Numbered from the whole stretch's first letter, positions 13,959 to 63,190 are shown. The stretch: DNA of 63,266 bases, filler included, from Lenisia limosa (GCA_001655205.1; 13 parts of 13 records of this genome joined end to end with filler, not necessarily neighbours in it), one strand, 5' to 3'. Made by a program: numbers and translations. Notes: generated by a model from the sequence alone, not told the origin.

Positions 13959-16900
13959 TTAGTCAGCAACGCCGAAGCCATCATGAGGGAGGAAAGAGGG
14001 GTGGCAGACAAAGCGTCCTCGGTTAGCTTCAAACAAACGGTAGGCCATCATGGCTGGGGGAGGGGGGGGGGAGTAAAACGAAGGAAATTTCGAAGAAGAA
14101 TATTGGCGTGAAGGNNNNNNNNNNNNNNNNNNNNNNNNNNNNNNNNNNNNNNNNNNNNNNNNNNNNNNNNNNNCGAAGTAAAACAAAACCACAACTCAAG
14201 AAGGCTCACCAAGAACAAAAGCAACCAAAATGAAGGATCCGCTTCCAATCATATCCATTTCAATGAAGGCTGAAGGTGTTAAATAATACACCATAAATGA
14301 AAAGAGTACGAATATATTTAGGGCCCTGTGCAATTAATTGAAAAAATAATTGCAAAATTTGAGGTCGGAATTATAACGAGACCCTAATTAATTTTCCCAA
14401 AAAAATTAATTACACAGAGCCCTATAAATACAAAAAGCAGTTGTCCAAATAGCATAGTTATTCAATTATACTGAAGCAATCTATATAACCCCAATTAACA
14501 CACCTTCTGTAAAGACAACACAGAAGAGAGCGAAGGCGGTAAAGAGCAAAATAAGAACTAGAGACTCCTGAATCCGTTAAAACTCCACAAAATTCACCCG
14601 TCACGCCACACCTCCAGAACTACAAAAGAAGGTAATGTTAATCATAGAGGGCAGTAGCTTTAGCATTTGAAGTAATTCCCTCACCATGAACTGCCAGGAT
14701 CTGTGATGTGGGTGGGCGGGTTCAGCGAGATAGCCCTGGAGCGGGCCGGGGGAGGGTGAGGGGCGCTCGCTTTCAGCTCCGGCCATAGACTGCTGTGTCA
14801 AGAAGAAGTGCGCTATTATCCGCAAAAAAGGCAGTTATAATTTAGAAGTCGGTGCAATTAATTTTTTTTTAATTAAAATTCTTGCATATCAGATGTACCT
14901 CAACCCTCCATACGCCATATCACTCTTGCCCCCCAACCCGGGTGACCCTGAGGCTCTTGGGTGTGCCTTGAGATTGTTGCGCGGAGGGGCGAAAAAACCC
15001 AAGAAATAAATCAATGGAATCCTGGGGGTACGTGAGGAATAAAAATAGTGCAAAAGCTCATTTCTTTGAAAAGAAATGTATACTATTTATTTTAGCCCAC
15101 TATTTCAACGTGTAATCCCACTTCACCAATACAACAAACAAACCTGTCGTTTGCCGTCACTGAAGTTATTGAGCACATATCGCGTTAAACTGTTGACACC
15201 GTCGTCGATGAGTCCCTTTAAAGTGCGGCGGCCAGTCCTGGGCAAAGTGAAAACAAGAAGTCGGATTGAATATTCATTTTAAACATTGGGAAAACTTCTG
15301 TAAATGAACAGTAATGTCTCACCGGGTGAAGTCGTTTTTGAGTGCACCAGTGCCGGAGTATTCCAATGACATCACATCAGCATGGTCAGCCCACACTGCA
15401 TAGTATTAGGTGACGTCATGCGAAGATGAACAGTTAGAGATTCCAACCTTCCTGGACTTCACAGAGGACATTTTAGAGATTTAAAAAATGACAATAGATC
15501 CCCCCACTGTGCTTGAAAACGGTATTGAAGCCGATAGCAGAAATCTGGTCTTCTTCCCCGGTTCTCTCAACGCCAAAAAGGGCAAGTTGCTTATTCAGGA
15601 GATTGCGTCCAATCATTGACTGTAACGTAAGGGCAGGAAGGATCAGGCTTCTTTGGAGTTCACAAAACAACAGTAAACCTTTCACAAAGTCCCTCTCCCA
15701 GAAAAAAGAAGCTTTTAATACCCCACCTGTACCACATTGGTTCTATCAAGGTTGTCAACACAGTTGGTGCGTACAACGCCATGCTGAACCTGACCCTCCG
15801 TCTTGGTGGTGAAGAACCTGTTGTGAGATTACGGCTTACAGAAGATGTGTAAGGATAATAGAACTACTGTTTATAGGATAAACTGTATGGTAGTACATAC
15901 TTTAACCGTCCCCAACTTACGAGTGAGTTTCCAGATCTTTCGAGATCATATCAAGCAGAAGGTTGAGACGATCGTACCTGTAATGGTCAAAATAAGGCAG
16001 AAAACTGGTCCCATAACATGGAAATGATGGACTTTTCGCTATTATTGAAAAAGTACCTCACCTCATTTTACTGCACTCCTTGTGGAAATCAAACCAGTAG
16101 TAACTGCAAATTGTCAATAAACAAGATTTCACTCGAGAAAAAATCAACTTACGATCCGAAAGTGTATTAAATCAATAAAGCACCCCTCTGCAGCTCACCT
16201 AAGATCGATATTTTTGTGGCTGTTGACAAGGGCCTCGTATTGTTCTCCAAGCGAGTTCTGACCACCTTCCGTGTAAGCAAGACGATGCAATATCACTATC
16301 CTGGTGGACCTCCAACTTCGATCAACATGACCAAATTGATATTAATGAGATGATTGTACCCACCCTTTTTGTCGATCAAGTTGACGATGGAAACTGGACC
16401 GTAGCGCTGCACCAGTTTGTTGAAGTGGTTACGGAAGGCCAATGACTGGGAGCATAAATGACAATTTACTGTTTGTTGATAGAGTTTTTGCCGTAAAGAT
16501 GGTATGAATAGCATCCCCCGCCCCCAAACATCTTCATCTTCATCACCAGTGAGTTCGAATTTGGGGTTGTACTTGAGGGTGATCCTCTGACGCCAGAAGA
16601 GCGGGATGGATCCTCTGTGTTTCGTTAGAAACAGGGCAAAATCAACATATGCATATTCGTAGCCTCAAAAAGCATACCTGATTTGAAGGTGGGTTGAAAT
16701 GTCGAACTTCCCATCTTTTTCGACAATAAGGAACTATAGTGGTGAAAAGCGTTGTTAAAAACGAGAATAAAACGTGGTAATTTAATAACCAGGGATTCCC
16801 CACGGTCCCAAAACAGACTGAATGTCCCGATAAATCCTCGGTAATATCGATATTTTAACAGTCTTTTTGAATCGTAGGGAAGCACTTGTAACTGAAAAGA

Positions 16901-17457
16901 AAACGCTAAAAATTGTGCTACTGTTTAGAATATGAGACCATTCATGATATCTTTTCTACAAAACAGCCAGAATATATTGTGTAAGAAATGAAGCCCTTCA
17001 AAGTTTGCAAACAAAAACCTGCGGACCTGCTCTGTGAAGGCAAAATTAGCGACGTTGCCCTCCATGTCCACTCCACGACGGGTATAGCGAGTTCCTGGGG
17101 GGGGGGAGTAAAACGAAGGAAATTTTGATGAAGAATATTGGCGAAAAGGTACTAATCACGAACCGAATAATGTAAAACTCCAAACAAACAAAAAACAAGA
17201 AACAAGGAACACGAGCAACCAACGCTCAAACAAAAAAAAAAGCCAGATGACAAAAACACAAAACAAAAACAAGCCCGAGCCAGCCTTTGAAGAGTCCCAC
17301 CACCGCTCGATCACCCAAACGTACCTGTAAGGCGTTAAAAAGTAAGGGAAATGTTTTAAAAAAAATCCGACTTATTAACGGTCACAACCCAAGCATTCGA
17401 CCCCCGAGGGGATCAAAGCTGGATGGACAGAGCGCGGACCAGACCAGACTGCAGAAA
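13959..17457 (-). CDS. SAC1: SAC1-type phosphoinositide phosphatase with two C-terminal TM helices; 5' partial
   Basis: [108 protein letters not shown], two hydrophobic exons, C-terminal [11 protein letters not shown]; stop at 13959. Confidence 0.93.
14054..14114 (-). repeat. Intron 3'-end module type I used as acceptor
   Basis: CGCCAATATTCTTCTTCGAAATTTCCTTCGTTTTACTCCCCCCCCCCTCCCCCAG|; near-identical at 17095. Confidence 0.85.
14319..14424. mobile_element. MITE with TAGGGC termini
   Basis: TAGGGCCCTGTGCAATTAATT...AATTAATTACACAGAGCCCTA inverted repeats, in SAC1 intron. Confidence 0.75.
16790..16888. mobile_element. MITE family A copy
   Basis: CAGGGATTCCCCACGG...ATATCGATATTTTAAC...CGTAGGGAAGCACTTG. 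Confidence 0.6.
17095..17152 (-). repeat. Intron 3'-end module type I used as acceptor
   Basis: TTCGCCAATATTCTTCATCAAAATTTCCTTCGTTTTACTCCCCCCCCCAG| immediately before the GTRY exon. Confidence 0.85.
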
Positions 17458-17557
17458 NNNNNNNNNNNNNNNNNNNNNNNNNNNNNNNNNNNNNNNNNNN
17501 NTTAATTAATTAANNNNNNNNNNNNNNNNNNNNNNNNNNNNNNNNNNNNNNNNNNNN
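17458..17557. other. Artificial contig linker
   Basis: 44N+TTAATTAATTAA+44N. Confidence 0.97.
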
Positions 17558-17660
17558 AACAAACAAAGCTGAAGCCAGTTCACTTCTGCAGCACCGCATC
17601 CCATCACTCCAGCGACGGGGGAAAAGAAGGAAATTTGGTGAAAAATATAGCGTAAAGGCA
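17558..17660 (-). repeat. Internal segment of the intron-module family
   Basis: GCTGGAGTGATGGGATGCGGTGCTGCAGAAG; also near 20795 (+), 23023, 25450, 61735. Confidence 0.75.
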
Positions 17661-19143: not shown

Positions 19144-19530
19144 TATTATTTGAAACATGATTTAATTGGTTAAGGCTTACCACGGTCACTTTCAGGGATT
19201 ATCCAAAATCACTCACTAGAGTTTCAGATACTATGTGTAATTTCTTATCTCAGCTTATCTCACGCGTTAAGAAATCATCTACTCATTATTCATAATCCCT
19301 GAGCTCATCCTTTCTTCTAGAGGGATTTCAGGGAATAATGCAAGAATTACACTCCTTACCGCAGAATTCAGGGAAAATCTATAATTTCTTATCTCATCCT
19401 TTCAGATGTCTGGGCTACAAAGTGCCAAAATCATGTTGATTGAAGAAGTGCTTGGAAAAACCAAGGAATTGGAAAACTCATCGGTTCGTCTTCTGACCCA
19501 GTAGGCTCTAGGGGCAAAATCTGCTGTAAG

Positions 19531-19630
19531 TAGGGCTTCTCTACGATCCCAAAAAAGACCAAATTTATCGATAAATCCTCGATAAATATCGATATTTTAA
19601 CGGTCTTGTTCGGACCGTAAGGAAGCGTGA
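19531..19630. mobile_element. MITE family A copy
   Basis: TAGGGCTTCTCTACG...ATATCGATATTTTAACGG...TTCGGACCGTAAGGAAGCG. Confidence 0.65.
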
Positions 19631-19693
19631 TGACGTGTTAAAATTTCTTATTTCTACCTGTTATATTTTGATATTACCATATTTTATCAGAAT

Positions 19694-19800
19694 AAAACAA
19701 GGTTGTATCCGGCCGAAGCCGTCCATACCGTCACACTTAGAAGAGATATTCGATTATAGTAAGTATTAATTCAGGCTTCGGCAAGATACAACCTTGTTTT
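19694..19800. mobile_element. Family C repeat, copy with inverted termini
   Basis: AAAACAAGGTTGTATCCGGCCGAAGCC...GGCTTCGGCAAGATACAACCTTGTTTT. Confidence 0.75.
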
Positions 19801-19917
19801 TTTTCTCATTGCCTTGCAACTCTATGAACTTCGTGCCTCTTCAGTATAACCCTAAAGTGTGGACGGCTTCGTTTTACTTCCCATCTCGTCAAACATCAAC
19901 AAATCCTCGAGAAATAT

Positions 19918-20028
19918 CTATATTATTGCCCCCATAGAGTAGAAGCCCAGAATCCTGTCGAGGACTTTGTGATGGTCATCAATCCTGACGGCTCCGGCGG
20001 CGGCTCTTTGAAAGTGTCCACTGACCTT
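19918..20028 (-). CDS. Short terminal exon of unknown gene
   Basis: GC-rich block after a module-type acceptor (AG at 20029); frame unresolved. Confidence 0.35.
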   Translation of the reverse strand, partial: KVSGHFQRAAAGAVRIDDHHKVLDRILGFYSMGAII

Positions 20029-20117
20029 CTGGGTGAGGGGGAGTAAAATTGGAAAATTTTGTTGGCTGACAACACACGAGGGTTGATAACAACAAAACAA
20101 ACAAGGGCCAGTCGCTT
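20029..20117 (-). repeat. Intron 3'-end module type II used as acceptor
   Basis: AAGCGACTGGCCCTTGTTTGTTTTGTTGTTATCAACCCTCGTGTGTTGTCAGCCAACAAAATTTTCCAATTTTACTCCCCCTCACCCAG|. Confidence 0.8.
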
Positions 20118-20835
20118 NNNNNNNNNNNNNNNNNNNNNNNNNNNNNNNNNNNNNNNNNNNNNNNNNNNNNNNNNNNNNNNNNNNNNNNNNNNNNNNNNNN
20201 NNNNNNNNNNNNNNNNNNNNNNNNNNNNNNATCTTTATCTTAAGTCAATCGTGTTAGGACTTATCATGGTCAGTGGTCAGTGTAGATATGGTACTAATTA
20301 CAGTATAGTTGCAAACCATACTGAAATAGTATCCCACAAAGCTAACCATGCAGAAACGCGGGAATTTCCCCCGGGTTCCCTATGGACTTTCATTGGCGAA
20401 TTATCAACCCGTCCCGGGGATATGACCGTAGGGGGAAAATCAGCAATGAGAAATACAAAATAAGTTTTTATGGCCGAAGCCATCCACACCATCACGCTTT
20501 AAGAGATATTCCTTACCACTCTGTGCACACAGCTTTCTGCGTGCCTAACCATACACATATTACTTATAGTATGTTGTGTATATCATATGATATGATATAA
20601 TATATAGTAGTATGACTATCAATCTTGAGTACAATACGGATATTTATTGAGGTTTTTTAGAGATTTTATTGAGGTTTAGTGAGGTTTCATAGAGAATTTT
20701 TTTTGTAACTCTTTAGCGTGAGGTGGTTCTTAGAGCTCGTGTTTGCACAACTTCTCAAGGTGGGCTGTGAGGAACCCACAATAACACATTATCTGGGGTG
20801 ATGGAATGCGGTGCTGCAGAAGCGACTGGCCCTTG

Positions 20836-20935: not shown

Positions 20936-20999
20936 GCCTTTTTTGTTCATAAATTTACTCCCCCCACCCTTTGACCATTTCACCCTTTTACCGCGACAG

Positions 21000-22922
21000 C
21001 CGCTGCGCTTAATTCCTCCCTCGGAAGCACTGTGTATGGTCGACGCGATTGCCCACCAGCCTGTCTTGTGGACAACCAGCAAGCCTGATTGCTGCAAGTG
21101 AGGAGGGGTGCAAGTTTGGTATGTGTCTGGGGGGGGGGGTAACTTTACATCTATCATTCACTTCCTGCTCTTTGTTTTTTTATTTAATTTCATTGGAGTG
21201 TGCCTTTTTACCAATATTCGGCTTTGCAATTTTCTTCGTTTTTACTTGTGTTATGTCGGGGTTTTGTTTGCGAATTAACAACAGTCTCAGTTTTTCCCCC
21301 CAAGTGACATCGGGCTTATTTGTTTCATAAATTTTTCAATTTCACCCCCCCCCCTCTCCCAGGTACATTACACGCACCCCTGGCACGCAGCTTGCTTTCA
21401 AGACCATCATCGAGGTTGCAGCGTATCTGGACGAACGACTTGAAGCCAGACCTGTTTTTATCTCCAAGGACTATATCGGAATTGAAAATGTCGGTTACGG
21501 GTGGCCTTTCAGTCTTGGTTCTTCTTTCTTCTTATTGTGTTCTTTCCCCCCCTTTACAATTAATTTGCCTCCGCCATTTCTTTCCCTTTTCCTGACGTCC
21601 ATAGTTCCCCATCGCCGTCGCCCTTAAAGCCACCTTAACTGAGCTGAACGACCACCTGAAATCTGGAGTGGAAATTGACCCAAAAGTATGGGGGGGCATA
21701 CTGGATCAAAGTGGTGGGCTTGAGTGTATCACCGTCGCTATAAAATTTAATAAGAGGAAATTCACATAATTGAACTAAGAATTCAGATACTGTACCGAGG
21801 CGTTGACGCCATGAAAACGCTCTCTGCTGTCTACCTTGTCCCTGCCCCTACTGCCATGGTTGCAACTCTGGTGGTGGAGCTGACTGGCCTGCTCGGCTCG
21901 GCTCTTGAGAAGGCTCGTATGGGGATGCGAATAATGAATTTATGTATACTGCGATGCTTGTTCAGAATTCGGAGTATTTTTTGGGCGTGGTGATATTTTA
22001 CAAACTTAAATTCACTTCATTTAAGGTTCCGAAGCTTCCGACGACAAAGTCATTGTTGAGGCGGCCAAGTCCAGAAAACGTAAGGGGGGTTCCGATATAT
22101 TCAGCTCATTGATACTATTGGTGAAGGTTTTGGTTGTNNNNNNNNNNNNNNNNNNNNNNNNNNNNNNNNNNNNNNNNNNNNNNNNNNNNNNNNNNNNNNN
22201 NNNNNNNNNNNNNNNNNNNNNNNNNNNNNNNNNNNNNNNNNNNNNNNNNNNNNNNNNNNNNNNNNNNNNNNNNNNNNNNNNNNNNNNNNNNNNNNNNNNN
22301 NNNNCAGAATTAACCGTATCGCCACCAAAACGCTCAGCGCACCTCTTTGCGTTGCGCACTGTTCGAGGCGTAGCCGCGCAAACCCTCGCAAAACTCACGC
22401 CAACTATGCCATACCGAATGGCGGAATGGAGCAATGGCGCCCTCGGTACCCGAGGCAAATTTGCCACTGTCGCTGACGAACTCCGTACCGTGTTGGACTT
22501 GCTGAAAACGGACGGTTGCCACTCGGAACTGCTGAGGGGCGCGGCCGCACTCCACGCCGCCCTACTTGGCATTCAGACCGTGAGGGGGTTACTAATGTAA
22601 CTCGTGTAACCAATTTAATCTCAAAAAACTGACCCTATGACAGGGCCCTGCGCCCCCAAGTTCTCTGAATGAAGGCGACCAAGACGCTTTGAAAAAGGTG
22701 GGTCCACGAAATGCAGAGTTGTGTGTTGGTAAACATGAAATGTCTGTTCCTTTCTGGTTATTTTGAGCAACAGCATAAATTAGCGTTTTTATGATACTGC
22801 TAGAGTCTTTCTCTTACACTTACCACTCTAACAGACCTTGTCGTATACTAACAAAATCAGGCCGTCTCGTGGTTCTCGGTGGACTCCCTCTTGGAAATGC
22901 TCCCAGTACTGCAAGACAACCT
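21000..22922 (+). CDS. Uncharacterised multi-exon protein (internal fragment)
   Basis: Spliced: PLRLIPPSEALCMVDAIAHQPVLWTTSKPDCCK|YITRTPGTQLAFKTIIEVAAYLDERLEARPVF..., ...ATVADELRTVLDLLKTDGCHSELLRGAAALHAALL..., GPAPPSSLNEGDQDALKK; canonical GT-AG. Confidence 0.7.
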
Positions 22923-23022: not shown

Positions 23023-24050
23023 AGGCCAGTCAGTCGCTTCTGCAGCACCGCGTCCCATCGGAGGGAGGCTAACAGAGAGCAGCCGTGTTATATCATGTGA
23101 TATTCGTTCATGTAATAATTGACGAAATAAGTTTGTTTTATTGCTGGTTATTAAAGTTGTTTTTTATATTGAAAGGATTATGTTTACTTCAAAATAACTT
23201 AATTTTTAACGTAAGAATTAAAATAGAAGTAAACGATATGACAACCTTTACAGCAATATACCAACCTACTTTGCCATTTTGGTAGTGAAACGTCCAAATG
23301 GGTTCATTCACCTGCAACATCAACTTTTGTTGGAAAACAAAAAGAGCACTCCTAACATAAAAAAAAAAAAAAAAAAANNNNNNNNNNNNNNNNNNNNNNN
23401 NNNNNNNNNNNNNNNNNNNNNNNNNNNNNNNNNNNNNNNNNNNNNNNNNNNNNNNNNNNNNNNNNNNATTTCTAAAACAAGGAGACAAAAACTGGAAATC
23501 AATTATCAAAACTAATACAAAAAGAGCACTCCTTCGCTTAAGATGACCCTCCCCCCTCCTTCCATTAAAGAAAAAGAGCTGGATTTTGAACAATCATGGT
23601 GGTTTAAGAGAAACCTTTATACAGAAAAGAATCAAGAATAACTGTACAGATTTTACACCGAAGTGGTTATAGAGGGATACATTGCGCTTTCACTCACATG
23701 GTAGGCAGTTACGCTGAGGAGACAAAGAAGTAGTGAAATAATCGCCGATATCGTCATATTTCCTCGTAAAATACTTCAACAGACCAGGTTATAGCTCTAG
23801 AAGAAGAATACACGTTAAGTTAGGTAAGAAATTCGACACCACAGCAGACTTTACATGACTATTTTCTCATTTAAAGTTACAACATTTCGATACTGCTACT
23901 AAACATATGATGAAAAGGCTCTGGCGGCCAAAAATCGAAACCAATATTGTATATTACATTATTTACATATGTAAGTAAAATTGTTATTTTTACCTAAACC
24001 AATAAATTCAACCATTCATTCACGGTAGAATAAAGGATTGAGCTGATTCA

Positions 24051-24868: not shown

Positions 24869-24969
24869 TAGGGCTTCACTTTGGTTCGAAAAAAGACTGA
24901 TAAAATATTGATATTTATCGATGATTTATCGAAAAATTCAGTAATTTGTTGGACCGAAGTGAACATCGA
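24869..24969. mobile_element. MITE family A copy
   Basis: TAGGGCTTCACTTTGGTTCGAA...TTGGACCGAAGTGAAC. Confidence 0.7.
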
Positions 24970-24979
24970 GCCAACCTCC

Positions 24980-25164
24980 CTAAACAACACTCCTCGTAAA
25001 GTCATACAAAGCCCGCCAACCTCTCCGGGCGAAAATCACTTCATCCTCAACCGTGACCCTGTCATAGGTGTGCTCACTGAGAGCGACCGTTGAGAGGCGA
25101 AGTCCTGGGGTTTCCAGGAGCGGATCAAAGAGGTCCGAGAGCCATTGCGGGAATTTGTGGTTTT
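24980..25164 (-). CDS. Terminal exon of unknown gene
   Basis: After module acceptor at 25165: NHKFPQWLSDLFDPLLETPGLRLSTVALSEHTYDRVTVEDEVIFARRGWRALYDFTRSVV*. Confidence 0.55.
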
Positions 25165-25532
25165 CTGTGGGGGATGAGTGTGAAAATAGAAAATTAGCAA
25201 AAGCCCAAAATCAAACACACAAGGGTTGAAAACAACATAACAATGCCCCAAATTAAACACAAAGCCCAAGACAAATCTCTTCAGCTATTAGAAGCATATA
25301 GAAGGTGGGGGGCCTCTCAAATTGTGAACTATTTTCATGATGACCCCACAAACTGGAAACATAGAAGGTGGCCTGTAACTTCCCGCTACCTGTGGGGAGT
25401 AAAAATGTGGCAAATATATGAGAAAAAAAAGAAGCCCAAAATCAACTCTGTTGGCTTCTGCAGCACCGCATCCCATCACTCCAGCGTACCTGAGGGGAGT
25501 AAAGTGAGGCAAATATATGAGAAAAAAAGGGA
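25165..25532 (-). repeat. Three stacked intron 3'-end modules
   Basis: C-tract-CAG ends at 25490, 25390 and 25165; the first two are followed directly by GTA. Confidence 0.8.
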
Positions 25533-26350
25533 NNNNNNNNNNNNNNNNNNNNNNNNNNNNNNNNNNNNNNNNNNNNNNNNNNNNNNNNNNNNNNNNNNNN
25601 NNNNNNNNNNNNNNNNNNNNNNNNNNNNNNNNNNNNNNNNNNNNNNNNTAATGGAGTCGCTTGCTTGAATAAATACTGAAAACAAATACAAGGAGTTACC
25701 ACTATCAATAGTATAATTAAATGTTATAATTTCAAATAATTGTAAAATAAAGTAATTTTCTGAAATTGTCACATTTTTTATTCCATTTTCAGCTGAAATC
25801 GAAAATCTTGATTTCAATCGTCAAAAAAAAATAAAAAAAAATACGAAATATTTGAAAACTGCACGGTGTTTAAACTGTTATGTATTTATTTATTTCCTAG
25901 ATTTTTAATGTTATATATTATTTCTTGTTCAACAAATACAAAGAGAAGAGATCCCAACTCTTAATAGTGATCATATAATACCAATAAGAAGAGTAGTTCT
26001 CACTCTTTATATAATGCCAATGAGAAGAGTGGTCCTACTGTTAATGGTGATCAATATGGAGTAAGTGGAACCGGCAGAGATGACAGAGCTCGAGGGGTTG
26101 TTGAAGGTTGACAAGGATAGATGGTGCTGGGAGAGGTGAAAAATGGACCATACGATCAAAATGGTTGTGACAATATGGTACAAGTATCAGTGTATAAAAT
26201 GACAGTGGAGAAGAGACTAAAACATGAAAATTAGGAGTTTTTGGAATTATCAAGAGTCTTTTATCTTTTGATAAATATAGTTGAAAGTTGAACAAAAACG
26301 TTTTCTTCTTGCCCGACTAAGCTAAGTTTATGTATTTAACACAACCCATA

Positions 26351-27757
26351 TAGTCGCGGACAAAATTAATTACAGTAGTCCTGTTTTTACCCAAAATTTT
26401 ATTAAAAATTGTAATAAATGGGATATAACTCGCCGAAACACCAGAATTTCACCTCAAACCAGCATATATTTCGAAAGTAGGCATCTTTTCGGATTTGGAT
26501 TTTTTTTTGGTTGTAAATCCGTATTTTCAGCGAAAATATTAAAATAAAACATCAAACTCGAACCTACGACATTCATATTTGATATTCTCTAATTTCTCAA
26601 TCCTGCTTCATTCGTTGATGAAATAGTCCCCTCACGACTCGGAAATGGGCCAGTAGTTACATTTTGATGCTAATACACGTTACTTGAAAATGCCTTGAGG
26701 TCAGAATCCTTCTAAGTCAGTACTTAGTGGGGTAACCATCGTTTTCAATGACGGCCTGGAGACGGCGGGGCATAGAGCAGATGAGGGTCTGCATCATGTC
26801 AAGGTCGAAGATGTTCCATGCTTCTTGAAGACTACTGAACAGTGCTTCTTCGCTACAGAAGCGTTCTGGATGGAGCTTACGGACTTCATGATCGAGAACA
26901 TCCCATAAATGCTCGATGGGGTTGAGATCAGGGCTTTGAGATGGCCATTGACACGGTTGACCTTGTTGCGACGGAAGTATTCCTGAGCGACACGTGACGT
27001 ATGCTTGGGGTCGTTGTCCTCTTGCCAGAAGAAGTCAGGGTAGGTAGGGCAGCANNNNNNNNNNCGTGTGTCTTGGACCCAGTATAGATCACCGACGCCT
27101 TTCCAGCCAAACGCACCCAGACCATGCCCTTACGGCGGTCGACTCTCTTGAAAGACGGCAACAGGTTCTGACCTTTCCGTTCTTCTGGAAAAGCTGGTAC
27201 GGAGACTCGTCCGAAAACGCCCAAGAGTCCCAAAATTCCGCAGGCTTGTCGATGTACTTGCGCGCGAAGGTAAGGCAAGCCACACGGTCCTTCTCGGAAA
27301 TGTGAGTGTGCTTACGATCAGAACGCTGGTATGCTGCTGACTTTCAGGCAGCGGGAGGCCCTACTTAAATACCCAAGCTTGAGCCCGGTTAAAAATACGG
27401 ATTGACAACCAACATGAGGACATATGTCTTGGACAATCTCTACAAAGAGGCCGTTTAGGGTTTTGAAGTATGTACACCATTCTTCGTTCCATTTCGGAAG
27501 ATTTGTTACAGCAGTTTTGAAAAGAATTATTGATGGGGAGTTCGACTCCTGGTGTTGACGTTTTATTTTTATCTTTTCGCTGAAAATAAGAATTTACAAC
27601 CCAAAAAACCCCAATAATTCCTTATCCGAAACGGTGTGTATACTGGTTTGAGGTGAAATTCTGGTGTTTCGACGAGTTATATCCCATTTATCACAATTTT
27701 TAACAAAATTTTGGGTAAAAAAGGACTACTGTTTTTATTTAATTTTGTCCGCGACTG
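26351..27757 (-). mobile_element. Tc1-family DNA transposon, decayed, with ~205-bp TIRs and TA TSD
   Basis: TA|TAGTCGCGGACAAAATT...(26351-~26556) vs ...AATTTTGTCCGCGACTG|TA (~27555-27757), aligning over ~200 bp; encloses transposase remnants. Confidence 0.93.
26717..27495 (-). pseudogene. Tc1 DDE transposase pseudogene
   Basis: FWDSWAFSDES, MVW(G)AFGWKGVGDL, QEDNDPKHTS, WPSQSPDLNPIEHLWD, SMPRRLQAVIENDGYPTKY*; several frameshifts. D-34-E spacing if one lost base is restored. Confidence 0.92.
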
Positions 27758-27989
27758 TATCCCCGCCCTAGCCCTGTGAGGAGGAAGATTTAAAAAGATG
27801 ACTACTGGAGAATCGAACCCTCGACAACGTCAGCAACTTTCATGGAAATCAGCAAATAAAAAACAGTCAGCAAAAACAAATGCCGATATATTTGTATTGT
27901 ATGTGATATTGACTAAGGATTCTTTTTAAGAAGTTGGAATTCTCATATTTTACATGGGAATTCAATCAAAATTTGGAGAAAATTATGTT

Positions 27990-30162: not shown

Positions 30163-30204
30163 TATATTCCTATTTACATAAATGAAAAATATATAATATA
30201 TATA

Positions 30205-31154: not shown

Positions 31155-31783
31155 AGAGATTGGAAGCCATTTCAGCCTATATCGGCTACCACACCGGATC
31201 GACTTGGAACATCAACAAGTGTCGTATGGATGTATTTAGGTTCAACAAGGCCAATCCAGGGCATCCTTTGGGCAAAATCAAGCCCTATTGGAACGACCGA
31301 CTGAGACAGCTGCTAATCAAAGCCAAGAACCAGACAGGAAAAGTACCACAATCTTCACCCAAGACAAGTGGCTACAAGACGATTGAACTGTTTCTCACTT
31401 TCCTTGAGCCTGATGACGAAGTTGCGACTCCTAATATGGTACAGGAATATTGGAAACATCATGTGGTAAAAAGTTCTGGAGCGAGAAAGCCTCGTTCTCG
31501 TGCTGCACCGAAGCCAAAAGCAAAGAAAGCCCCAATGATGGTTGAAGAAGACTCGGAAAGTGATGTTGGGAGTGACCATACGGAAACTGAAACAGACAGT
31601 GAAAGTGAAGATGAAATTGAGGCTGTTGATGGAGAATACCCCTCCAAATCTGGAGCTAAGACTTCTGCTCGAAGGTCTACCAGAAACCGAGTACAACTGC
31701 AAGGCTATTTCGATGATGATGATGACGAGGAGGTCGGAAGTGACTTGGACATTGAGACAGAAGAGGAACAGGAAGAATCTTAG
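31155..31783 (+). CDS. Large terminal exon: basic region plus long acidic tail, unknown protein
   Basis: Acceptor CTAATTAATTACTTCAG| then an open frame of about 208 codons ending EEEQEES*; no upstream exon identified. Confidence 0.6.
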
Positions 31784-41611: not shown

Positions 41612-44600
41612 TTAGGTTCTGATGCTCTCAACGGCCATCTAGATGTCAGTTGAAGATTTAGTTGACAAAACCCACCTTAAAGGCCTTACGCATCTTCAGT
41701 CTCACCCCCAAATCCGAGGTTAAAATTGCAATGTCGCTATGAATCAAACACTGACCATCTAAAAAGCCATTATTTCACATTTGATGTTGACCATACTTAT
41801 CTTCAACTTCCGTGCTTCTGCAACACAATGACCAAAACGTCTTGAAGTTAACCAGTTACAGACTTCTTCAACCGTCCATTCCTTTGCCTACATGAGTCAG
41901 TTAAAAAATCAGGAACCAAAAAGTTCCAACGTTTTGAACTGAAGGGGTGATTGGGGCCACGGGATCCACAGACACAGGAAGAATTGGCGCAACTGATTTG
42001 TGGTTATGATAGATGCAGCGAGAGAATTAGAAAACAATTCAGACAAACCCTGACAAACCAGCTGTTGGAGGTGCGATTGTTTTCTCAGTTTGACTTTGCT
42101 CATTAACTTCTTTCCCGTATTCCACTTCTTTTTCCACTTCTTTATTCACTTCTTGCATGTCTTCTTTCACTTCTTTCAAGTCTTCTTTATTCACTTCTTT
42201 CACGTCTTCTTTCACTTCTTTTACGTCTTCTTTCACTTCTTTTACGTCTTCTTTCATTTCTTCTTTTGCGTCTTGTACTTTTTTCACTTCGCCCTCTTCG
42301 TTCACTTTCTCTTTTTCTTCATTATTAGTTCCATCCAATAACTCAGATTCAAGTGCTTGCTTTTCCTCAAACTTAAAAGTGAATCATCTCAGGAAATATC
42401 GCAACCAAAATTAGCTTATTATCCCAACATACTTCAACTTCCGTTTCTTGTACCTCGAAAATGGAGTCAAAGATATCTTGGCAGAACTTAAGGACGGCAT
42501 CTAAGCTTTCCATGTATTTCACTCCGTCTAATCTAGTATTGTCAATGTACTGATTTAGACACACACACCCCTCTTCCTCACAACTAGTTCCTATCCATGG
42601 CAGACCTGGCATCGGTAGTACGGACAAAGACATTCACAGATTGGGCAAGAGACTCGTTAATGGCGTTGACCTGCGTAAGTCGTCAAGTAAGATGTGCATC
42701 GTTTTGAGAAGATGTTAGTAACCGCTCTGCTTACAATAAAAACTTTCCAATTAGATAAATTTGAATTTCTAGGAAGACAATTAATTTTCCCTCAAGAAAA
42801 CTAAAAAAAGAAAAAAAAAAAAAAAANNNNNNNNNNNNNNNNNNNNNNNNNNNNNNNNNNNNNNNNNNNNNNNNNNNNNNNNNNNNNNNNNNNNNNNNNN
42901 NNNNNNNNNNNNNNNNNNNNNNNNNNNNNNNNNNNNNNNNNNNNNNNNNNNNNNNNNNNNNNNNNNNNNTCTGACCAAAAATACAAACCTTTATTGGGAG
43001 TGATTTTGTGAAGTGTTGTAACGTTGGTCCATGTACAATGGCAATTTCTCGAACAAAAGCTATAGTGTTAATGTCAATATATAAGGGATTATTATTGAAA
43101 TACAACCCTCAGACTTGAAGCACTTGCAAGGGATTTTGTGAGCAGATTAGCATTCGACAAAAGAGAAGATAATACCACATTTATAGGACCTACAAGGTAA
43201 ATTGAAAATAGTATTTAAAAAAACTCTTTGTAGATGTGCATCATCTATCATATGATATACTAAAAGATATTCTTCCAACCAACTTTCATCTGTATTGTTT
43301 TTAACTAAGCTACACAGGCGGGTCACCTCGGAAATGGATTCAATTGAGGACACTGTACACGGCAGGTCTCTGATAAGAGGGGAAAACCTTGACTTTTAGC
43401 ACCGCTTTTAACATCTCGACATACCAGTTGTTCGCAGTTATTTCAGATGACTTCCAACTGGCAACAGTGTTTCGAATCAACTGGAGGGGGACGGGGTAAA
43501 AATTGGAAAATTTACAATAAATAATAATAATAATAATAATCAACTCTGTTTAATAACACACGAGGGTTGAGAACAANNNNNNNNNNNNNNNNNNNNNNNN
43601 NNNNNNNNNNNNNNNNNNTCGGTGCAGAATTTTTACCACTTTTTTTTTAAAAAAAATTACCGGGAAAACCAACAACAAAACCTTGGAAAATTATCATAAA
43701 AGTGTTATCTCACCTAAAAGCAATTTCCTTATTAAAGCGAGATATGCATCGCAACTTTTGGGATTCAATTCTTGTACAACTTTGTTTTTTATTGGAAAAA
43801 AAAGGGGGGCGGGGAGTTTTCTCATTTTTCTTTTTGGGTGATCTCAAATAGTTTCCTGATCTCTATCCTTTGCTCTCTGAATTGATTGTCATTGAAAGAT
43901 ACAATCATTTGAAAAGAGAAAAGAGAAAGAGACGCATTAAACACCGAGAAATCAGGAATTTGCCCCATCAAAGGAAGAAAGTATCCAAATCCAATCCTGG
44001 CTTTCTCTGAAACAGAGGGTCATCGTGCTCTCTTGAGCTTTCCTTTTCGGGAATGCAAGTTTTATTCAATTAAACAGTTTTTTGCGGCGGGTAGAGAGGT
44101 TAGCAGTATTATCTCCCGGTGCACATCTCGCTTTTAGTACCCTGACAGGTAGCTTTCATACAGAACCCTCATCTCTTTCATTATCAGTTTGACTTTCCAC
44201 TCACCTCAATTGATTTATTGATGCGGGTGAAGGAAGACTGGCAGATACCAACTGCACCATCACCTGGAAAATGAAACAGGCACAAATGTTATGACTTAGA
44301 GCACTAACGATTGATATAAAAATCCAACCGAGCACTGGGCCTTTGACATCCCCTGGTTGAGTGAAGCGAGATAGTTCACCAAGACCAATGGAAAGATCAG
44401 CCGTTGCCAGGTTGAACTCCTGAAAAAATAATATTGATAACGAAAGATATTTATAATGAAGCAGACAGCAGATCCAAAAGCTTACTGTGATGAAAGAGGT
44501 GACTTCTGCTTGCATTTTAGATAGGCGACTTTGAACACAGCTGTATCGCTGAGGTGAAGCAGAATGTTTCAGCTCAAATTTTCATCATTGTACGAGTATT

Positions 44601-47569: not shown

Positions 47570-47641
47570 GGGGTCATCCGGGGATCGATCCCGGGACCTC
47601 TCGCACCCTAAGCGAGAATCATACCACTAGACCAACAACCC
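47570..47641 (-). tRNA. tRNA-Pro (anticodon AGG), intronless
   Basis: GGGTTGTTGGTCTAGTGGTATGATTCTCGCTTAGGGTGCGAGAGGTCCCGGGATCGATCCCCGGATGACCCC; 72 nt, cloverleaf, C discriminator. Confidence 0.95.
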
Positions 47642-52215: not shown

Positions 52216-53952
52216 ATGTCAAAACTTTCAAGTGAACTGTCTGAACTTCGTGTTGTTGACCTTAAAGAAATGCTTCGTAACCAAGGTCTTCCTGTTTCTG
52301 GAGCCAAGTAAGTTTGGAATTTCTGGACTTCGTTTTTGGCGGGTTTACTATTCAGGGATGAGCTTATTTCCCGTCTTGTGGACTACAAGGAGTCTGCTAC
52401 ACTTGGTTCTGGAAGTATGAACTCCCCTATGGTCCTTGATACGCCCACACCTTCAACTCCTTCTCGTCGTGGACGTACTCCTCGCGCTACGGCAAAGGCT
52501 CCCACTCCTCGTCGTGTGAGAACTCCACGCAAGACCACTAAGGCCGTGAAAGAGGTCGAAACTCCTAAGAAGGGCTCACCTAGAAAGATTTCTTCTCCTC
52601 AGAAATTTGACCTTGCTACACCTCCCAAGGCTAAAACTCCAGTTAAAACTCCACTTGTTGAAGAGAAAGAGGAGCTCACTGAGGCTGAAAAAGCTGTTGA
52701 AGAGGTTTCTAAGCAACTTTTCTTCTCTGAGGAGCAAAAGACCACTAATGATGATGAAGGTGATGATGTACTCTCTGTTGCCGAGGCTGCTCTCGAGGAG
52801 GAGCTTGTCATTGCGAAGGAAGAAGAAAAGGAGGAATTGAAGCCTGTTTGCACTAAACGCCCCCGCGGAGTCTGGTTTGTCTACTTTTACTCTTAAAATG
52901 TAAAAGTTAACCTTTTAGCTGCGTCTACCTCTCTTCTGTCCTCATGCTCATCATGTGTATGTTTGGTTTTGATCACTCTTGCCTGACTGCCGATCTCGAA
53001 ATTAACTGAAAAAACAGGTGCTGCAGTTTACATTGCTGGAGCTGATGAACTTTCTTTCCAACGAATCTTCAAAAACCTTGTAAGGTGTTTTTTTTTTTGT
53101 TGTTAGGTTTGATTGTTTCACTTAATCTTATGATGTTTTTTTTTTTTTTTTTTTTCTGACTGAAGATTAGGTTGTTNNNNNNNNNNNNNNNNNNNNNNNN
53201 NNNNNNNNNNNNNNNNNNNNNNNNNNNNNNNNNNNNNNNNTTGTTTGCAGGGATATGTTAGTCTTTTGGCTCAGAATACAAGCTTACGGTTTTTGACATT
53301 TTAGGGTCTTGTTTCACCTCCCTTTTCTTCTGCTGCCATTCTCAGCTTCTTCCTCCTTCCTTTCCTTTGCATTCTCCCTTTTGGTAAGCAAAATGATGAT
53401 TTGCTTATTGCCAGCATGCTGTATATGAGGTTCCTCTTATTTATTTAGTTATGCGTCGAGTTTCAGAGAAATGCTGCCCTTGTGCCCCTGTTGCGACAGC
53501 TGAGGACCCCAAGAAGAGCAGTGCCATTTGCTGCCTTGGAATGAAGTGCTGCCCAATGAAAGCCATTGTAAGCATCCGCACTTTCTCAACAATCGCATAT
53601 CAGTCAGTTTTTTTTATATTCTTAGCTTGGTCCTTGTCCCTGGGGTGCCACCGTTCGCGTTATGGCTTTCCTCTTTGTCTTCGTCCCCACCATATTGGTA
53701 GGCCACTCTTTTAACAAAAGTAATGCTTTTTTTTGCGTATCTTATTACTCACTACTCAAAGGTTGCCCTTCGTCTGTGCCCCTGTTCCGCTGAAACTCTC
53801 TTCCCTGAAAACTCCATTGCTCTTATTAATAAGTAAGAGTGTTTTATTTCAGACCAATATTTTTCAAGAGGCTGTTGAAGAGGTATATCTGGGGAGACCA
53901 ACCTGTTATAAGGCCTTTCCCTCTAACCAAAGCTTTTAGGTTTAATAATTAA
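52216..53952 (+). CDS. SAP-domain protein with S/T-P-rich linker, acidic region and C-terminal hydrophobic/Cys-rich segments
   Basis: MSKLSSELSELRVVDLKEMLRNQGLPVSGAK|DELISRL (SAP); TPRR, TPRK, TPKK, SPRK, SPQK; then CVYLSSVLMLIMCAAVYIAG and further TM-like exons; 3' end approximate. Confidence 0.75.
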
Positions 53953-59640: not shown

Positions 59641-59910
59641 GGGAGGGGGGGCCTGATATGGGATGGCGAGGGATATGGTAATGTCGGCTTTTTGATGATG
59701 GTATTTTCTCATAGTATACAGTATATATATGTTCNNNNNNNNNNNNNNNNNNNNNNNNNNNNNNNNNNNNNNNNNNNNNNNNNNNNNNNTTTGTTTTTTT
59801 CTGTTGTTTTTTTTTGTGAGTTTTTCTCTGTTTTCAACCCTGTATGTTACTTTTAGTAGTGTATTACCAGCGCAGATTATAATTTAATATGACGATATTG
59901 TTTAGTACTT

Positions 59911-60308: not shown

Positions 60309-60329
60309 AACTAAATTGCCCCCACCCAC

Positions 60330-61569
60330 TTCGATATTGCAAGACACAGTAGCATCAATAATCTTGACATTCCTCAAAACAAGTTCCACATTCGTCATAG
60401 CCGCGAAGAAACTTCCGGTGAAGTCTAACCCGGAAATGACGTGACCGTTACCGTCAATTACTATACGGGCGTTACCAACGTCTTGGTTGAGAGATCTGGG
60501 CTGGGCGTCAGCGCAATTGAGATCTTGCGTGAGCGTAGTTGTGGCGTTCGTGGCGTGGATGAGATCGAGGCAGCTGAGAGGGGNNNNNNNNNNNNNNNNN
60601 NNNNNNNNNNNNNNNNNNNNNNNNNNNNNNNNNNNNNNNNNNNNNNNNNNNNNNNNNNNNNNNNNNNNNNNNNNNNNNNNNNNNNNNNNNNNNNNNNNNN
60701 NNNNNNNNNNNNNNNNNNNNNNNNNNNNNNNNNNNNNNNNNNNNNNNNNAAAAGCGCCAGAAAGGGAGGCTGCGTGCATTGAATTGAAATATTATTTTTA
60801 TAATGTGAAGTGGGGCATCGTGTCACAAAAACCCTTTAAATAATTTCCTCAAAAAATGAATTGCTTTTGTGCAGTAAAGTCTATTGAAACTAAGATCTTA
60901 GAGATCAAGCGGTTGACTACACAAAGAAACATCCACAGAATTGCAGCCCTACACCCATCCTATCTCTTTCCCTCTCTCCTTGCTCTCACTCTCACTATCG
61001 TGATATTTAGGTTTGATTTGATTCAGCTCTTCATTCAAAGTCAAATCCGTTGGTTTGGATTACCCCCCCCCCCACCAGGCCAGTCGAGTGGCCGCTACAG
61101 TCAACTCCCATTCCCCGAGGTTNNNNNNNNNNNNNNNNNNNNNNNNNNNNNNNNNNNNNNNNNNNNNNNNNNNNNNNNNNNNNNNNNNNNNNNNNNNNNN
61201 NNNNNNNNNNNNNNNNNNNNNNNNNNNNNNNNNNNNNNNNNNNNNNNNNNNNNNNNNNNNNNNNNNNNNNNNNNNNNNNNNNNNNTGTTGGCTGATAAGC
61301 CCAGACATACCTTTGTAACTAATACCCTTCGTAACCTCCCGATACCCCCACTGAGACACCTCCTCCACAAAAACCTTAGTATCCATAAAAACACACACAG
61401 AACCTACTCCCATACAGAAACTTAATAACGGCATCCCACACAAACCTTAGTGATGGTAACAACCCACATACCTTGGTGACAGTAACGCTGTCGACATTGA
61501 GGCCCTCGGTCAGGTCCTTGGAGGGGTTGACAATGTAGGTCAAACTGCCTGAAACGGTGTGCATGGCTC
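60330..61569 (-). CDS. Extracellular protein fragment with GLUG-associated/beta-helix-like module
   Basis: TLTQDLNCA...RIVIDGNGHVISGLDFTGSFFAAM..VLRNVKIIDATV; other exons NLGEWELTVAATRL and GAMHTVSGSLTYIVNP. Confidence 0.6.
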
Positions 61570-61830
61570 CTGTGGGGGGGGGGGAGTAAAATTGAAAAAC
61601 AAACATTTAACAACACACGNNNNNNNNNNNNNNNNNNNNNNNNNNNNNNNNNNNNNNNNNNNNNNNNNNNNNNNNNNNNNNNNNNNNNNNNNNNNNNNNN
61701 NNNNNNNNNNNNNNNNNNNNTAACAAAACAAAGCCTAGGCCAGTCGCTTCTGCACTGCATGGGAGTAAAATCGGAAAAATATGAAACAAAAAAGGAAATT
61801 ATTTTGAAGAATATTGGTAAAGGTACTGTA
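61570..61830 (-). repeat. Composite intron module (type I internal, type II terminal acceptor)
   Basis: ACCAATATTCTTCAAAATAATTTCC..TTTTACTCCCATGCAG..GCAGAAGCGACTGGCC [gap] CGTGTGTTG..CAATTTTACT-C11-ACAG|. Confidence 0.8.
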
Positions 61831-61893
61831 CTAATCACAAAACAAATAATATTATAGTGTTTTTGAATTTATAGAAAAAAGAAAATGGATAGA

Positions 61894-61966: not shown

Positions 61967-62050
61967 ATATGTACTATATGAAACAACAACAAAATCATAC
62001 AGTCCAAAAGGGAGGGAGGAGGCGGGTGAGTGATAATACATTAAATAAGA

Positions 62051-62150
62051 NNNNNNNNNNNNNNNNNNNNNNNNNNNNNNNNNNNNNNNNNNNNTTAATT
62101 AATTAANNNNNNNNNNNNNNNNNNNNNNNNNNNNNNNNNNNNNNNNNNNN
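62051..62150. other. Artificial contig linker
   Basis: 44N+TTAATTAATTAA+44N. Confidence 0.97.
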
Positions 62151-62226
62151 GTGTGTTGTCAGCCAACAGAGTTTATTTGGGCTTTTTTGCTTCATAAATT
62201 TTCCAATTTTATCCCCCTCCCCCCAG
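62151..62226 (+). repeat. Intron 3'-end module type II used as acceptor
   Basis: GTGTGTTGTCAGCCAACAGAGTTTATTTGGGCTTTTTTGCTTCATAAATTTTCCAATTTTATCCCCCTCCCCCCAG|. Confidence 0.85.
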
Positions 62227-63190
62227 GCTATGCTTGGCCTTTTGGTGATTCTGACTGCGCTGTTCCTTCAAACCGCCGCGAACCCCTATCAACTACGCTC
62301 CCACAATTGGCTAGTGGGAGGGGGGGAGGTTGAATAAGAGAAATCCTATTCCTGAGAAATCGAGTGAAACAAATTCAACAAATTTCCATTTTTACTCTCC
62401 TCAAAGTAACATTATTCATTGAAATTTCCTTCGTTTTTTTTTTCAATTTTACTCCCNNNNNNNNNNNNNNNNNNNNNNNNNNNNNNNNNNNNNNNNNNNN
62501 NNNNNNNNNNNNNNNNNNNNNNNNNNNNNNNNNNNNNNNNNNNNNNNNNNNNNNNNNNNNNNNNNNNNNNNTTTGGGCTTTTTAGTTTCATGCAGTTTCC
62601 AATTTTACCACCACCCCCAGGAGTTCTTCCTGCTTAACTGCCAAATGCTGATCCTCTTCTTGGGGGTCATAATGCAGGGCACTACGGGAGAAGACGCGAC
62701 TCAGAGCAATGCCGCGGATGCCGTGGGGGGTTTTGAATGGGGAAACATAAGACAAATAAAACTTATCATTTCGAGTTGAAAGTCGGCCATATGATCATAT
62801 CACAAGTGGATATGGGTCATTATTTCGATCATATTATCATATCACTGGTGAATATTGGTAAACGTACGCCAACAACTTACGATTTAGGGTGTCATTCTCT
62901 GGATCCTTGTCATAACAGTCATTCTTGTCCTCATCGTCATCATCGTTGCGATTTTAGCCGAACTCTTCCCTGGTAAGCCGACCTCTTTTTTAAAGCATGA
63001 AAGGTGTCTTCAAATCATATGTTATGATACTATATCTGACTAATGTTGATTGAATATATATCTTTCTTCTTCCTCCTCTTATTATTCTTTCTCACTTCTC
63101 AAAGGAATCCGACGGTTCATTCGGGGCACATTCGGCCGGCCCGTTACGGTCAAGGACCCCTCGGAATCCTCCAGTGCCGTACTGGCCAGG
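62227..63190 (+). CDS. C-terminal TM region of a multipass membrane protein, likely same family as 4082-8365 (fragment)
   Basis: MLGLLVILTALFLQTAANPYQLRSHNWL|EFFLLNCQMLILFLGVIM...|GVILWILVITVILVLIVIIVAILAELFP; the P(Y/F)....N.LE pattern also occurs in the 4082-8365 protein. Confidence 0.65.
62765..62845. repeat. Dispersed repeat family D
   Basis: ATCATTTCGAGTTGAAAGTCGGCCATATGATCATATCACAAGTGGATATGGG. Confidence 0.7.

What the first reader, a model, noticed from the sequence alone, without database searches (positions are those of the whole stretch)
14054..62620. Introner-like family: unrelated genes share the same intron 3'-end modules, ending exactly at the acceptor AG
Seen: two related 50-100-nt modules end precisely at spliced acceptors on different scaffolds and strands. 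Type I (GCCAATATTCTTC..AAATTTCCTTCGTTTTACTCnAG) is the acceptor twice in SAC1 (14054, 17095). Type II (CAACCCTCGTGTGTTG..CAGCCAACAGAG..TGGGCTT..TCATAAATTTTCCAATTTTAC(T)CnAG) ends at 20029, 21362, 25165, 43481, 61570, 62226 and 62620. An internal segment, GGAGTGATGGGATGCGGTGCTGCAGAAGCGACTGGC, recurs near 17590, 20800, 23030, 25460 and 61740. Many N gaps fall inside these introns, as expected for a high-copy repeat. Known: introners are transposon-derived repeats that create new spliceosomal introns. Inference: a recent or ongoing intron-gain system whose element supplies the 3' splice site.
Basis: partly seen in the sequence, partly recalled or inferred. Interest (0 to 1): 0.8.

Follow-up and report, generated by a model that had tools for sequence, protein, structure and literature searches.

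The report
Stacked repeat supplying intron 3' ends
A very abundant repeat sits, often in head-to-tail stacks, at the very end of introns in unrelated genes of this intron-rich eukaryote and supplies the splice acceptor (shown by RNA at two sites); it likely colonises the ends of existing introns rather than making whole new ones, so standard searches for intron-making elements would likely miss it.

Summary
The modules are real and far beyond chance. All 9 cited sites carry the module, a C-run and AG. DNA contigs pile up to summed depth 168,259 and 143,455 against about 30 on unique sequence. An RNA contig uses both type I AGs in SAC1. No type II AG has RNA support.

Corrections:
- 20029 is likely not an acceptor. 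The copy lies antisense at the donor of a + strand gene.
- Types I and II and the 'internal segment' are parts of related GT…AG monomers (230 and 100 nt) that stack head-to-tail.
- Intron 5' ends are not shared (0 of 15 pairs, against 12 of 15 for 3' ends). There is no consistent target-site duplication, so the published introner criterion is not met.

Of 13 arrays, 12 are sense and none lies outside genes. All 10 visible C-run ends abut an exon.

Intron gain is neither shown nor refuted. Three testable module introns are unshared with fungal orthologues or a paralogue, but so are most control introns.

Best reading: an intron-derived element copied in at G/C-run splice ends, likely through RNA. 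New variant of a known kind.

The parts
14054..14114 (-). Type I 3' module with branch-point-like TTTAC, C-run and the acceptor AG of the last SAC1 intron (14209->14054, about 156 nt with gap)
   Evidence: RNA contig 9 piece ends at 14053 and its record offsets fit exons 14210-14269 and 14504-14567 next (my arithmetic)
17095..17324 (-). Complete type I monomer, 230 nt, begins GTACG, ends C-run AG = used SAC1 acceptor; preceded directly by another AG (AG|GT)
   Evidence: RNA loose end behind 17095 continues into the upstream SAC1 exon
17325..17365 (-). Upstream degenerate 3'-end unit ending in AG; shared with other genomic copies, so part of the repeat
   Evidence: contigs 7 and 10 align to 17362/17365; depth 3,699 at 17332
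17558..17656 (-). Type I end joined head-to-tail to the 5' segment of a type II monomer; sense in a - strand intron; runs off the scaffold
20029..20117 (-). Type II module lying likely antisense in a + strand gene; the donor GTGAG at 20033 lies in its G-run and the module's terminal four bases are exonic
   Evidence: in-frame four-exon chain 19406-19500 / 19938-20032 / 20354-20427 / 20717-20759; no RNA laid here
20792..20835 (+). 5' segment of type II monomer, sense in the next + strand intron; runs off the scaffold
21204..21362 (+). Degenerate type I end followed by type II end; predicted acceptor at 21362
23023..23062 (-). 5' segment of type II monomer at scaffold end; host strand inferred
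25165..25285 (-). 5'-truncated type II monomer; predicted acceptor at 25165; this intron's 5' end is a partial inverted match to its 3' end
25390..25489 (-). Complete, internally deleted type II monomer, 100 nt, GTACG...CAG; predicted acceptor at 25390
   Evidence: 139 DNA contigs leave the window at 25488/25489
25490..25532 (-). Tandem upstream 3' end ending in AG (AG|GT joint); closest to its neighbour, so likely a local duplication
   Evidence: 83% to 25390 against 50-67% to six other copies
43481..43576 (-). Type II 3' module; predicted acceptor of a 724-nt intron (44204->43481)
61570..61845 (-). Array: type I end, type II end, truncated 5' segment, gap, terminal 3' end; predicted acceptor at 61570
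62151..62226 (+). Type II 3' module; predicted acceptor at 62226; position has no intron in the scaffold-2 paralogue
62405..62620 (+). Array of several 3' ends across a gap; predicted acceptor at 62620; position has no intron in the scaffold-2 paralogue
13976..17094 (-). Host gene: SAC1 phosphoinositide phosphatase, C-terminal 407 codons in 16 exons; 2 of 16 intron positions carry the module

Best explanation
A high-copy repeat sits at the 3' end of introns in unrelated genes and carries the acceptor AG (used in RNA at both SAC1 sites), and it likely spreads by copying itself, probably through excised intron RNA, into the G/C-run ends of introns that already exist.

Shown: related 230-nt and 100-nt monomers that begin with GT and end in TTTAC, a C-run and AG; head-to-tail stacks; fixed 3' ends with variable, unshared 5' sides; strong sense and in-gene bias.

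Inferred: the C-run-AG end of the template pairs with a nicked or broken G-rich strand at a splice boundary and primes copying. That would put 5'-truncated copies just inside acceptors, make resident copies the best target (stacks), and now and then place a copy backwards at a G-rich donor, as at 20033. The incoming copy brings its own branch point and AG, so splicing is predicted to survive. Local duplication and microhomology deletion then likely make the mosaics. A full-length GT...AG monomer landing in an exon would create an intron, but no such single-monomer intron was seen.
For: - RNA uses both type I AGs.
- Summed DNA depth is thousands of times the unique depth.
- 12 of 13 arrays are sense (p 0.003) and 0 of 13 lie in the 25% of non-N bases outside gene spans (p 0.023).
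- All 10 visible C-run ends abut an exon: 9 acceptors, 1 donor.
- 3' ends are alike in 12 of 15 intron pairs, 5' ends in 0 of 15.
- Many 'goes back' joints, and the consensus of 51 loose ends before 17097 holds the monomer's 5' word. Both point to head-to-tail stacking genome-wide.
- The 139 contigs that leave the window at the monomer's GT continue into purine-rich (sense pyrimidine-rich) sequence. So that GT is usually inside an intron, not its donor (consensus agreement only 0.42-0.43).
- The two monomer starts are related (2 of 2,000 shuffles as good).
- G-runs near donors (20 of 82) and C-runs near acceptors (10 of 82) also occur in predicted introns without the module, so suitable targets exist.
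- Micromonas introners are sense-only, gene-only, and occur nested or merged (PMC3879977, passages).
Against: - No reverse transcriptase or autonomous partner was found in the window. The RNA step is inference only, and DNA-templated repair leaves the same footprint.
- One of the two AG|GT joints looks like a local duplication.
- Two introns show 5' sequence that is an inverted match to their own 3' end, better than all 53 control introns (25353 intron; 21119 inside the 21098 intron). This hints at a TIR element.
- None of the 3 testable module introns sits at a position shared with an orthologue or paralogue. Colonisation of old introns would allow shared positions but none was found.
- Host strands for most arrays and all type II acceptors come from my own gene models.
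- The strand call at 20029 has no RNA or homology support, and the codon test is neutral (+1.1).
Confidence: 0.45

Rival explanations
1. An aged introner made these introns. A non-autonomous DNA element with short G-run/C-run inverted ends inserted into exons in either orientation and supplied the acceptor (sense) or the donor (antisense). Its left part has since decayed or been overgrown by tandem duplication.
For: - All visible ends abut exons, including an antisense copy whose terminal bases are exonic.
- Partial inverted matches in two introns.
- Module introns at 62226 and 62620 are absent from the paralogue, and 17095 is absent from 72 of 72 relative SAC1 loci.
- The genome is rich in MITE-like repeats and holds a Tc1-like remnant.
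- Polarella elements make introns in both orientations with a bias (10.1101/2020.10.14.339549, parts 1-2 of 4).
Against: - 5' ends are unrelated in 15 of 15 pairs while 3' ends stay 80-95% alike. Both ends should age alike.
- No consistent TSD.
- No module-to-module opposite-strand joint among the 30 joints listed of 113.
- The Tc1 ends do not resemble the module.
- The position tests are not significant: Fisher p 0.5-1.0, and the paralogue's own control introns are also unshared.
Confidence: 0.25
2. No mobile RNA is involved. The repeat spreads between intron ends by DNA-templated break repair or gene conversion seeded by G/C runs and by its own homology, like a dispersed satellite. It persists at 3' ends because only there is an extra branch point and AG harmless.
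For: - Mosaic units with microhomology-type deletions.
- A local tandem duplication at 25390/25490.
- Host introns carry G/C runs of their own.
- It explains the antisense copy equally well.
Against: - It does not explain why two related monomers both start with a donor-like GT directly after an AG.
- It does not explain how one family reached such abundance at the start.
Confidence: 0.2
3. It is an ordinary dispersed repeat that inserts at random, and selection alone removed copies elsewhere.
For: - Introns here are T-rich on the sense strand, and a copy with its own AG in mid-intron would be harmful.
- Weaker remnants lie off the splice site: 20954 ends about 30 nt before the AG, and there is an antisense core at 10218.
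Against: - Intergenic copies should be neutral, yet there are 0 of 13 (p 0.023).
- MITE-like families of the same window occur mid-intron and between genes (my reading of the coordinates).
Confidence: 0.1

Closest known systems
Micromonas pusilla introner elements (PMC3879977, passages read)
   Same: Repeated intron sequence in unrelated genes, sense orientation, transcribed regions only. Nested or merged copies and remnants inside conserved introns were reported. An RNA route was proposed.
   Different: There the whole intron is the repeat and stacking is occasional. Here stacking looks like the rule, only the 3' part of the intron is shared, and one copy is likely antisense at a donor.
Introners as defined by Gozashti et al. 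2022 (PMC9860276, parts 1-2 of 7 and method passages read)
   Same: The element can carry the 3' splice site; high copy number; enriched in genes.
   Different: Their pipeline needs similarity starting within 10 intronic bases of both ends and treats one-ended similarity as secondary insertion. These introns fail at the 5' end.
Dinoflagellate introner-like elements of Symbiodinium and Polarella (10.1101/2020.10.14.339549, parts 1-2 of 4 read)
   Same: The element end serves as the 3' splice site. Some classes work in both orientations with a bias.
   Different: Those have TIRs and 3-8-nt TSDs. Here no TSD is found and inverted ends are only hinted at in two introns.
Sister stwintrons and introner-like elements of Hypoxylaceae (PMC8469720, passages read)
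   Same: Composite intron-in-intron units that proliferate without TSDs and give cropped derivatives by microhomology deletion. RNA-mediated insertion at DNA breaks was proposed.
   Different: There the inner intron splits the donor and the unit has 45-55-nt TIRs. Here units abut at or before the acceptor.
Antisense Alu elements supplying acceptors, and recursive-splicing AG|GT sites (recalled, no call)
   Same: A repeat supplies the pyrimidine tract and AG; AG|GT joints inside long introns.
   Different: Alu acceptors make new exons and insert without regard to splice sites. Here the repeat takes the constitutive acceptor of coding exons. Recursive use of the AG|GT joints is untested.

Membership tests
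Introner (Gozashti 2022 definition) | Many introns in non-paralogous genes share sequence | tested here: met
   13 arrays in at least 9 different gene models; DNA depth and contig counts
Introner (Gozashti 2022 definition) | Similarity reaches both intron boundaries | tested here: not met
   Six sense introns with both ends visible: 3'-3' significant in 12 of 15 pairs, 5'-5' in 0 of 15; donors are predicted, except that of SAC1 intron 14209, whose junction an RNA contig supports
Introner (Gozashti 2022 definition) | Intron is spliced at the element end | tested here: met
   2 of 2 type I sites laid with RNA cover; type II not covered
Introner (Gozashti 2022 definition) | Intron lies at a new, lineage-specific position | tested here: inconclusive
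   17095 shared with 0 of 72 relative loci, but 8-9 of 14 control introns are also unshared; 62226 and 62620 absent from a paralogue whose own two introns in the aligned part are unshared too; no close relative available
MITE-type (DNA transposon) introner | Terminal inverted repeats | tested here: inconclusive
   Own 5' end beats all 53 controls for the 25353 intron and for an inner site at 21119; not for the other five starts tested
MITE-type (DNA transposon) introner | Target-site duplication of fixed length | tested here: not met
   Flanks of module introns show no common repeat; one 4-nt match at 26038/25389; over 85 predicted introns no excess over shuffles
MITE-type (DNA transposon) introner | Autonomous transposase with matching ends | not testable with these tools
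   No genome held; the one Tc1-like remnant in the window (DDE_3) has unrelated ends
Reverse-splicing introner (Micromonas / fungal ILE type) | Sense strand only, genes only | tested here: inconclusive
   12 of 13 sense, 0 of 13 outside genes; one likely antisense copy lacks RNA proof
Reverse-splicing introner (Micromonas / fungal ILE type) | A complete GT...AG unit forms the whole intron | tested here: not met
   Both complete monomers sit inside longer introns; 0 of 6 sense introns with both ends visible begin with the monomer start; genome-wide flanks of that GT are pyrimidine-rich
SINE / non-LTR retroposon | Fixed 3' end with variable 5' truncation | tested here: met
   Arrays end at the C-run and start at different points (25285, 61760, 25489, 17324)
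SINE / non-LTR retroposon | tRNA-, 5S- or 7SL-derived head; partner LINE | tested here: not met
   Rfam and ARAGORN find only an unrelated tRNA-Pro in the window; a partner LINE could not be searched for without a genome
Recursive-splicing site | AG|GT joint is used as an intermediate splice site | not testable with these tools
   Only assembled poly(A) contigs are available

The most novel reading that the evidence does not exclude
An intron-derived retro-element homes to splice boundaries. Its RNA ends in C-run-AG and primes insertion at G/C-run intron ends. It stacks as AG|GT units that can be spliced recursively, and it has taken over the branch point and acceptor of thousands of introns. 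When a full-length unit lands in an exon it makes a new intron. It would be a 'half-introner' that current introner pipelines discard by design, and a natural system for testing intron transposition.
Probability: 0.25. Interest if true: 0.8.

Novelty: new variant of a known kind. Interest (0 to 1): 0.52.

Why it matters
How introns spread and lengthen is an open question. Large surveys count only elements that match both intron ends (PMC9860276). A family that replaces the 3' splice signal of many introns would be invisible to them, yet would rewrite splicing signals genome-wide. Here the branch-point-like A lies 11-21 nt from the intron end, against mostly 9-12 in control introns.

At this abundance, a long-read assembly plus nascent RNA would directly separate RNA-mediated homing, DNA transposition and gene conversion. 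It would also show whether stacked AG|GT units are spliced recursively. The repeat also accounts for part of the fragmentation of this assembly: at least 4 scaffold ends and 5-6 of 28 gaps abut it.

Tried and rejected
- Whole-genome analysis: no genome is held.
- Exact 25-nt module word in metagenome contigs and in viral contigs: 0 matches each. This is weak evidence of absence.
- RNA check of type II acceptors: the scaffold-8 gene had no exon cover, so no inference is drawn.
- Naming the + strand gene at 19406-20759: it resembles TEN1 of the CST complex by recall only. Single-exon Pfam, PDB and homologue searches found nothing, and the Atlas look-up gave no result. The first codon test held one out-of-frame training exon and was redone; the result is neutral.
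- Lineage: not resolved. The tyrosine aminotransferase's named relatives are a fungus and animals at 45-47%; a SAC1 exon hits an oomycete and unnamed proteins.
- SAC1 intron comparison: 80 of 402 loci were returned, 72 distinct. They appear fungal (my reading; the contigs carry no organism names) and intron-poor, and some of their predicted introns are alignment artefacts. The test has little power.
- Donor at 21119: rejected, because an in-frame stop lies upstream, so the TIR-like start there is 21-29 nt inside the intron.
- Reading 17325 as the old host acceptor: weakened, because that stretch is shared by other copies.
- Weak T-rich matches (1694-1736, 59790-59848, 53078-53149, 61286-61300): not counted; near or below the shuffle maximum of 35.4 bits.
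- Helitron: rejected by eye (no 3' hairpin with CTRR end; defining features recalled).
- Literature: searches found no paper on a repeat family anchored at intron 3' ends in tandem stacks. The library is partial. Supplementary species tables of PMC9860276 and PMC12130899 were not read and could list this organism.
- Earlier scan notes: nothing for this genome or sequence. One search listed other introner cases, none of this form.


Full report
SETTING. The window is 13 scaffolds joined by a stop-codon linker from an intron-rich eukaryote whose lineage I could not resolve. No genome is held. One DNA data set (X1) and one poly(A) RNA data set (X2), both as assembled contigs and from one study, hold the sequence. 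X1 may be the source of the window.

OBSERVATION. At all 9 cited coordinates the stated strand reads module, C-run, AG. Profile scans built from the window's own copies give 23 hits, which I group into 13 arrays. Shuffled controls reach at most 10.5 bits. The independent evidence is the DNA run. On SAC1, 3,780 contigs were laid, with summed depth 168,259 at 17144 against 27-41 on unique sequence. On 24900-26200, 2,484 contigs were laid, with 143,455 against 32. The tool states that this is no copy number, and overlapping unitigs inflate it. Hundreds of contigs with long unique flanks imply at least hundreds, probably thousands, of loci (inference). Most laid contigs are 90-95% alike (2,009 of 3,780, a set that includes MITE contigs), so this is not one very recent burst.

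SPLICING. RNA contig 9 has a piece ending at 14053, and its offsets match the two exons upstream. An RNA loose end at 17095 continues into the conserved SAC1 motif that precedes the exon (alignment A1). Both type I AGs are therefore used. The type II gene I laid had no exon cover. The other acceptors rest on in-frame models. The module's TTTAC matches the branch-point-like word that lies mostly 9-12 nt from the end of control introns; in module introns it lies 11-21 nt away. Its role as branch point is inferred.

CORRECTION AT 20029. Four + strand exons (19406-19500, 19938-20032, 20354-20427, 20717-20759) join in one open frame across canonical introns, and skipping the second gives a stop. 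The neighbouring exons score as + strand coding (+4.3, +8.6, +4.3), while the exon itself is neutral (+1.1). So the module there is likely antisense, with the donor GTGAG at 20033 inside its G-run. I put this at about 85%. No RNA or homology search confirmed it. The protein recalls TEN1, from memory only.

ANATOMY. Types I and II are relatives. Two complete monomers begin GTACG and end C-run-AG: 17324-17095 (230 nt) and 25489-25390 (100 nt). Each follows another AG directly, and their starts align better than 1,998 of 2,000 shuffles. Monomers stack head-to-tail in the window (17620, 61760, 25490, 62456) and elsewhere: the DNA contigs show many 'goes back' joints, and the loose ends after a type I end carry the monomer's start word. 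At 25488/25489, 139 contigs leave the window into sequence that is pyrimidine-rich in sense, so the monomer's GT is usually inside an intron (agreement about 0.43). The 25490 end is 83% like its neighbour and 50-67% like six others, which points to local duplication.

DISTRIBUTION. 12 of 13 arrays are sense (p 0.003). None lies in the 25% of non-N bases outside my gene spans (p 0.023). Ten arrays show their C-run end and all ten abut an exon: nine acceptors and one donor. Three run off scaffold ends. For six sense introns with both ends visible, 3' ends match in 12 of 15 pairs and 5' ends in 0 of 15. No common TSD is seen. Against my reading, the 25353 intron and an inner site at 21119 match the reverse complement of their own 3' ends better than all 53 control starts.

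INTRON AGE. SAC1 has 16 intron positions in 407 codons. Among 72 distinct relative loci from metagenomes, five control positions are shared (six with a poorly aligned one), against about 0.4 expected by chance. One locus, L036, shares 4 of its 5 in-range introns, so this organism keeps ancient introns. The module intron at 17095 is shared by 0 of 72. The one at 14054 lies in a poorly aligned region. The contrast is not significant (p 0.5-1.0). The scaffold 13 gene has a paralogue on scaffold 2 (score 100, shuffle maximum 71 of 5,000). Both module introns are absent from it, but its own two introns in the aligned part are unshared as well. Intron gain is therefore open.

MECHANISM. Fixed 3' ends, ragged 5' sides, stacking, gene restriction, sense bias and an exception that sits exactly at a G-rich donor are most simply explained by insertion primed on G/C-run splice boundaries. 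GT...AG monomers point to an intron RNA as template (0.45). An aged DNA introner (0.25), DNA-only conversion (0.2) and random insertion plus selection (0.1) remain. No mobilising enzyme was seen; the Tc1-like remnant at 26348-27760 has unrelated ends.

COMPARISON. It works like an introner in that a repeat supplies a splice site. It fails the published membership rule of similarity at both ends (PMC9860276). Merged copies are known as occasional events in Micromonas (PMC3879977). Both-orientation elements are known in dinoflagellates, and composite proliferating introns in fungi (PMC8469720). PMC12130899 and PMC11282704 were seen as passages; other papers only as search listings. Searches found no description of a family anchored at intron 3' ends in stacks. 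The library is partial and supplements were not read.

VERDICT. It is a new variant of a known kind, interest 0.52.

Noticed in passing
window 10127, 16785, 17874, 19527, 24870, 48714; 12119, 19695, 20437, 30724, 45252; 1060, 30052, 61858; 19102, 20234, 24690, 35984; 10350, 46132, 51243, 62765: At least five other short repeat families, several palindromic (MITE-like), mid-intron and between genes. DNA contigs show some joined directly to module copies elsewhere.
   Followed up: partly
window 26348-27760: Broken Tc1/mariner-like element with about 210-bp inverted ends (81% alike) and a DDE_3 match.
   Followed up: partly
window 13976-17094: Very intron-dense SAC1 (16 positions in 407 codons), five shared with fungal-looking metagenome loci; L036 shares four.
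   Followed up: yes
window 7270-8053 and 62227-63190: Paralogous membrane-protein genes with no shared intron position in about 90 aligned residues, suggesting high intron turnover in this family.
   Followed up: partly
window 12726-12839: This N gap is 80 nt in a DNA contig and hides an exon of about 64 nt of the tyrosine aminotransferase gene; it abuts a poly-C run, not the repeat.
   Followed up: yes
window 19406-20759 (+): Four-exon open frame that recalls TEN1 of the CST complex (from memory); not confirmed.
   Followed up: partly
window 47570-47641 (-): tRNA-Pro(AGG) gene between two divergent genes.
   Followed up: no
window 31155-31782 (+): Intronless 208-codon frame with an acidic tail in a repeat-rich stretch; only weak low-complexity Pfam matches.
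   Followed up: no
window 1536-1811, 61286-61309, 59790-59848, 20936-20999: Possible further module remnants beside gaps or scaffold ends; the one at 20954 ends about 30 nt before an ordinary acceptor.
   Followed up: partly
whole window: G-runs just after donors (20 of 82 predicted introns without the module) and C-runs before acceptors (10 of 82), mostly in GC-richer genes (the GC link is my impression).
   Followed up: partly
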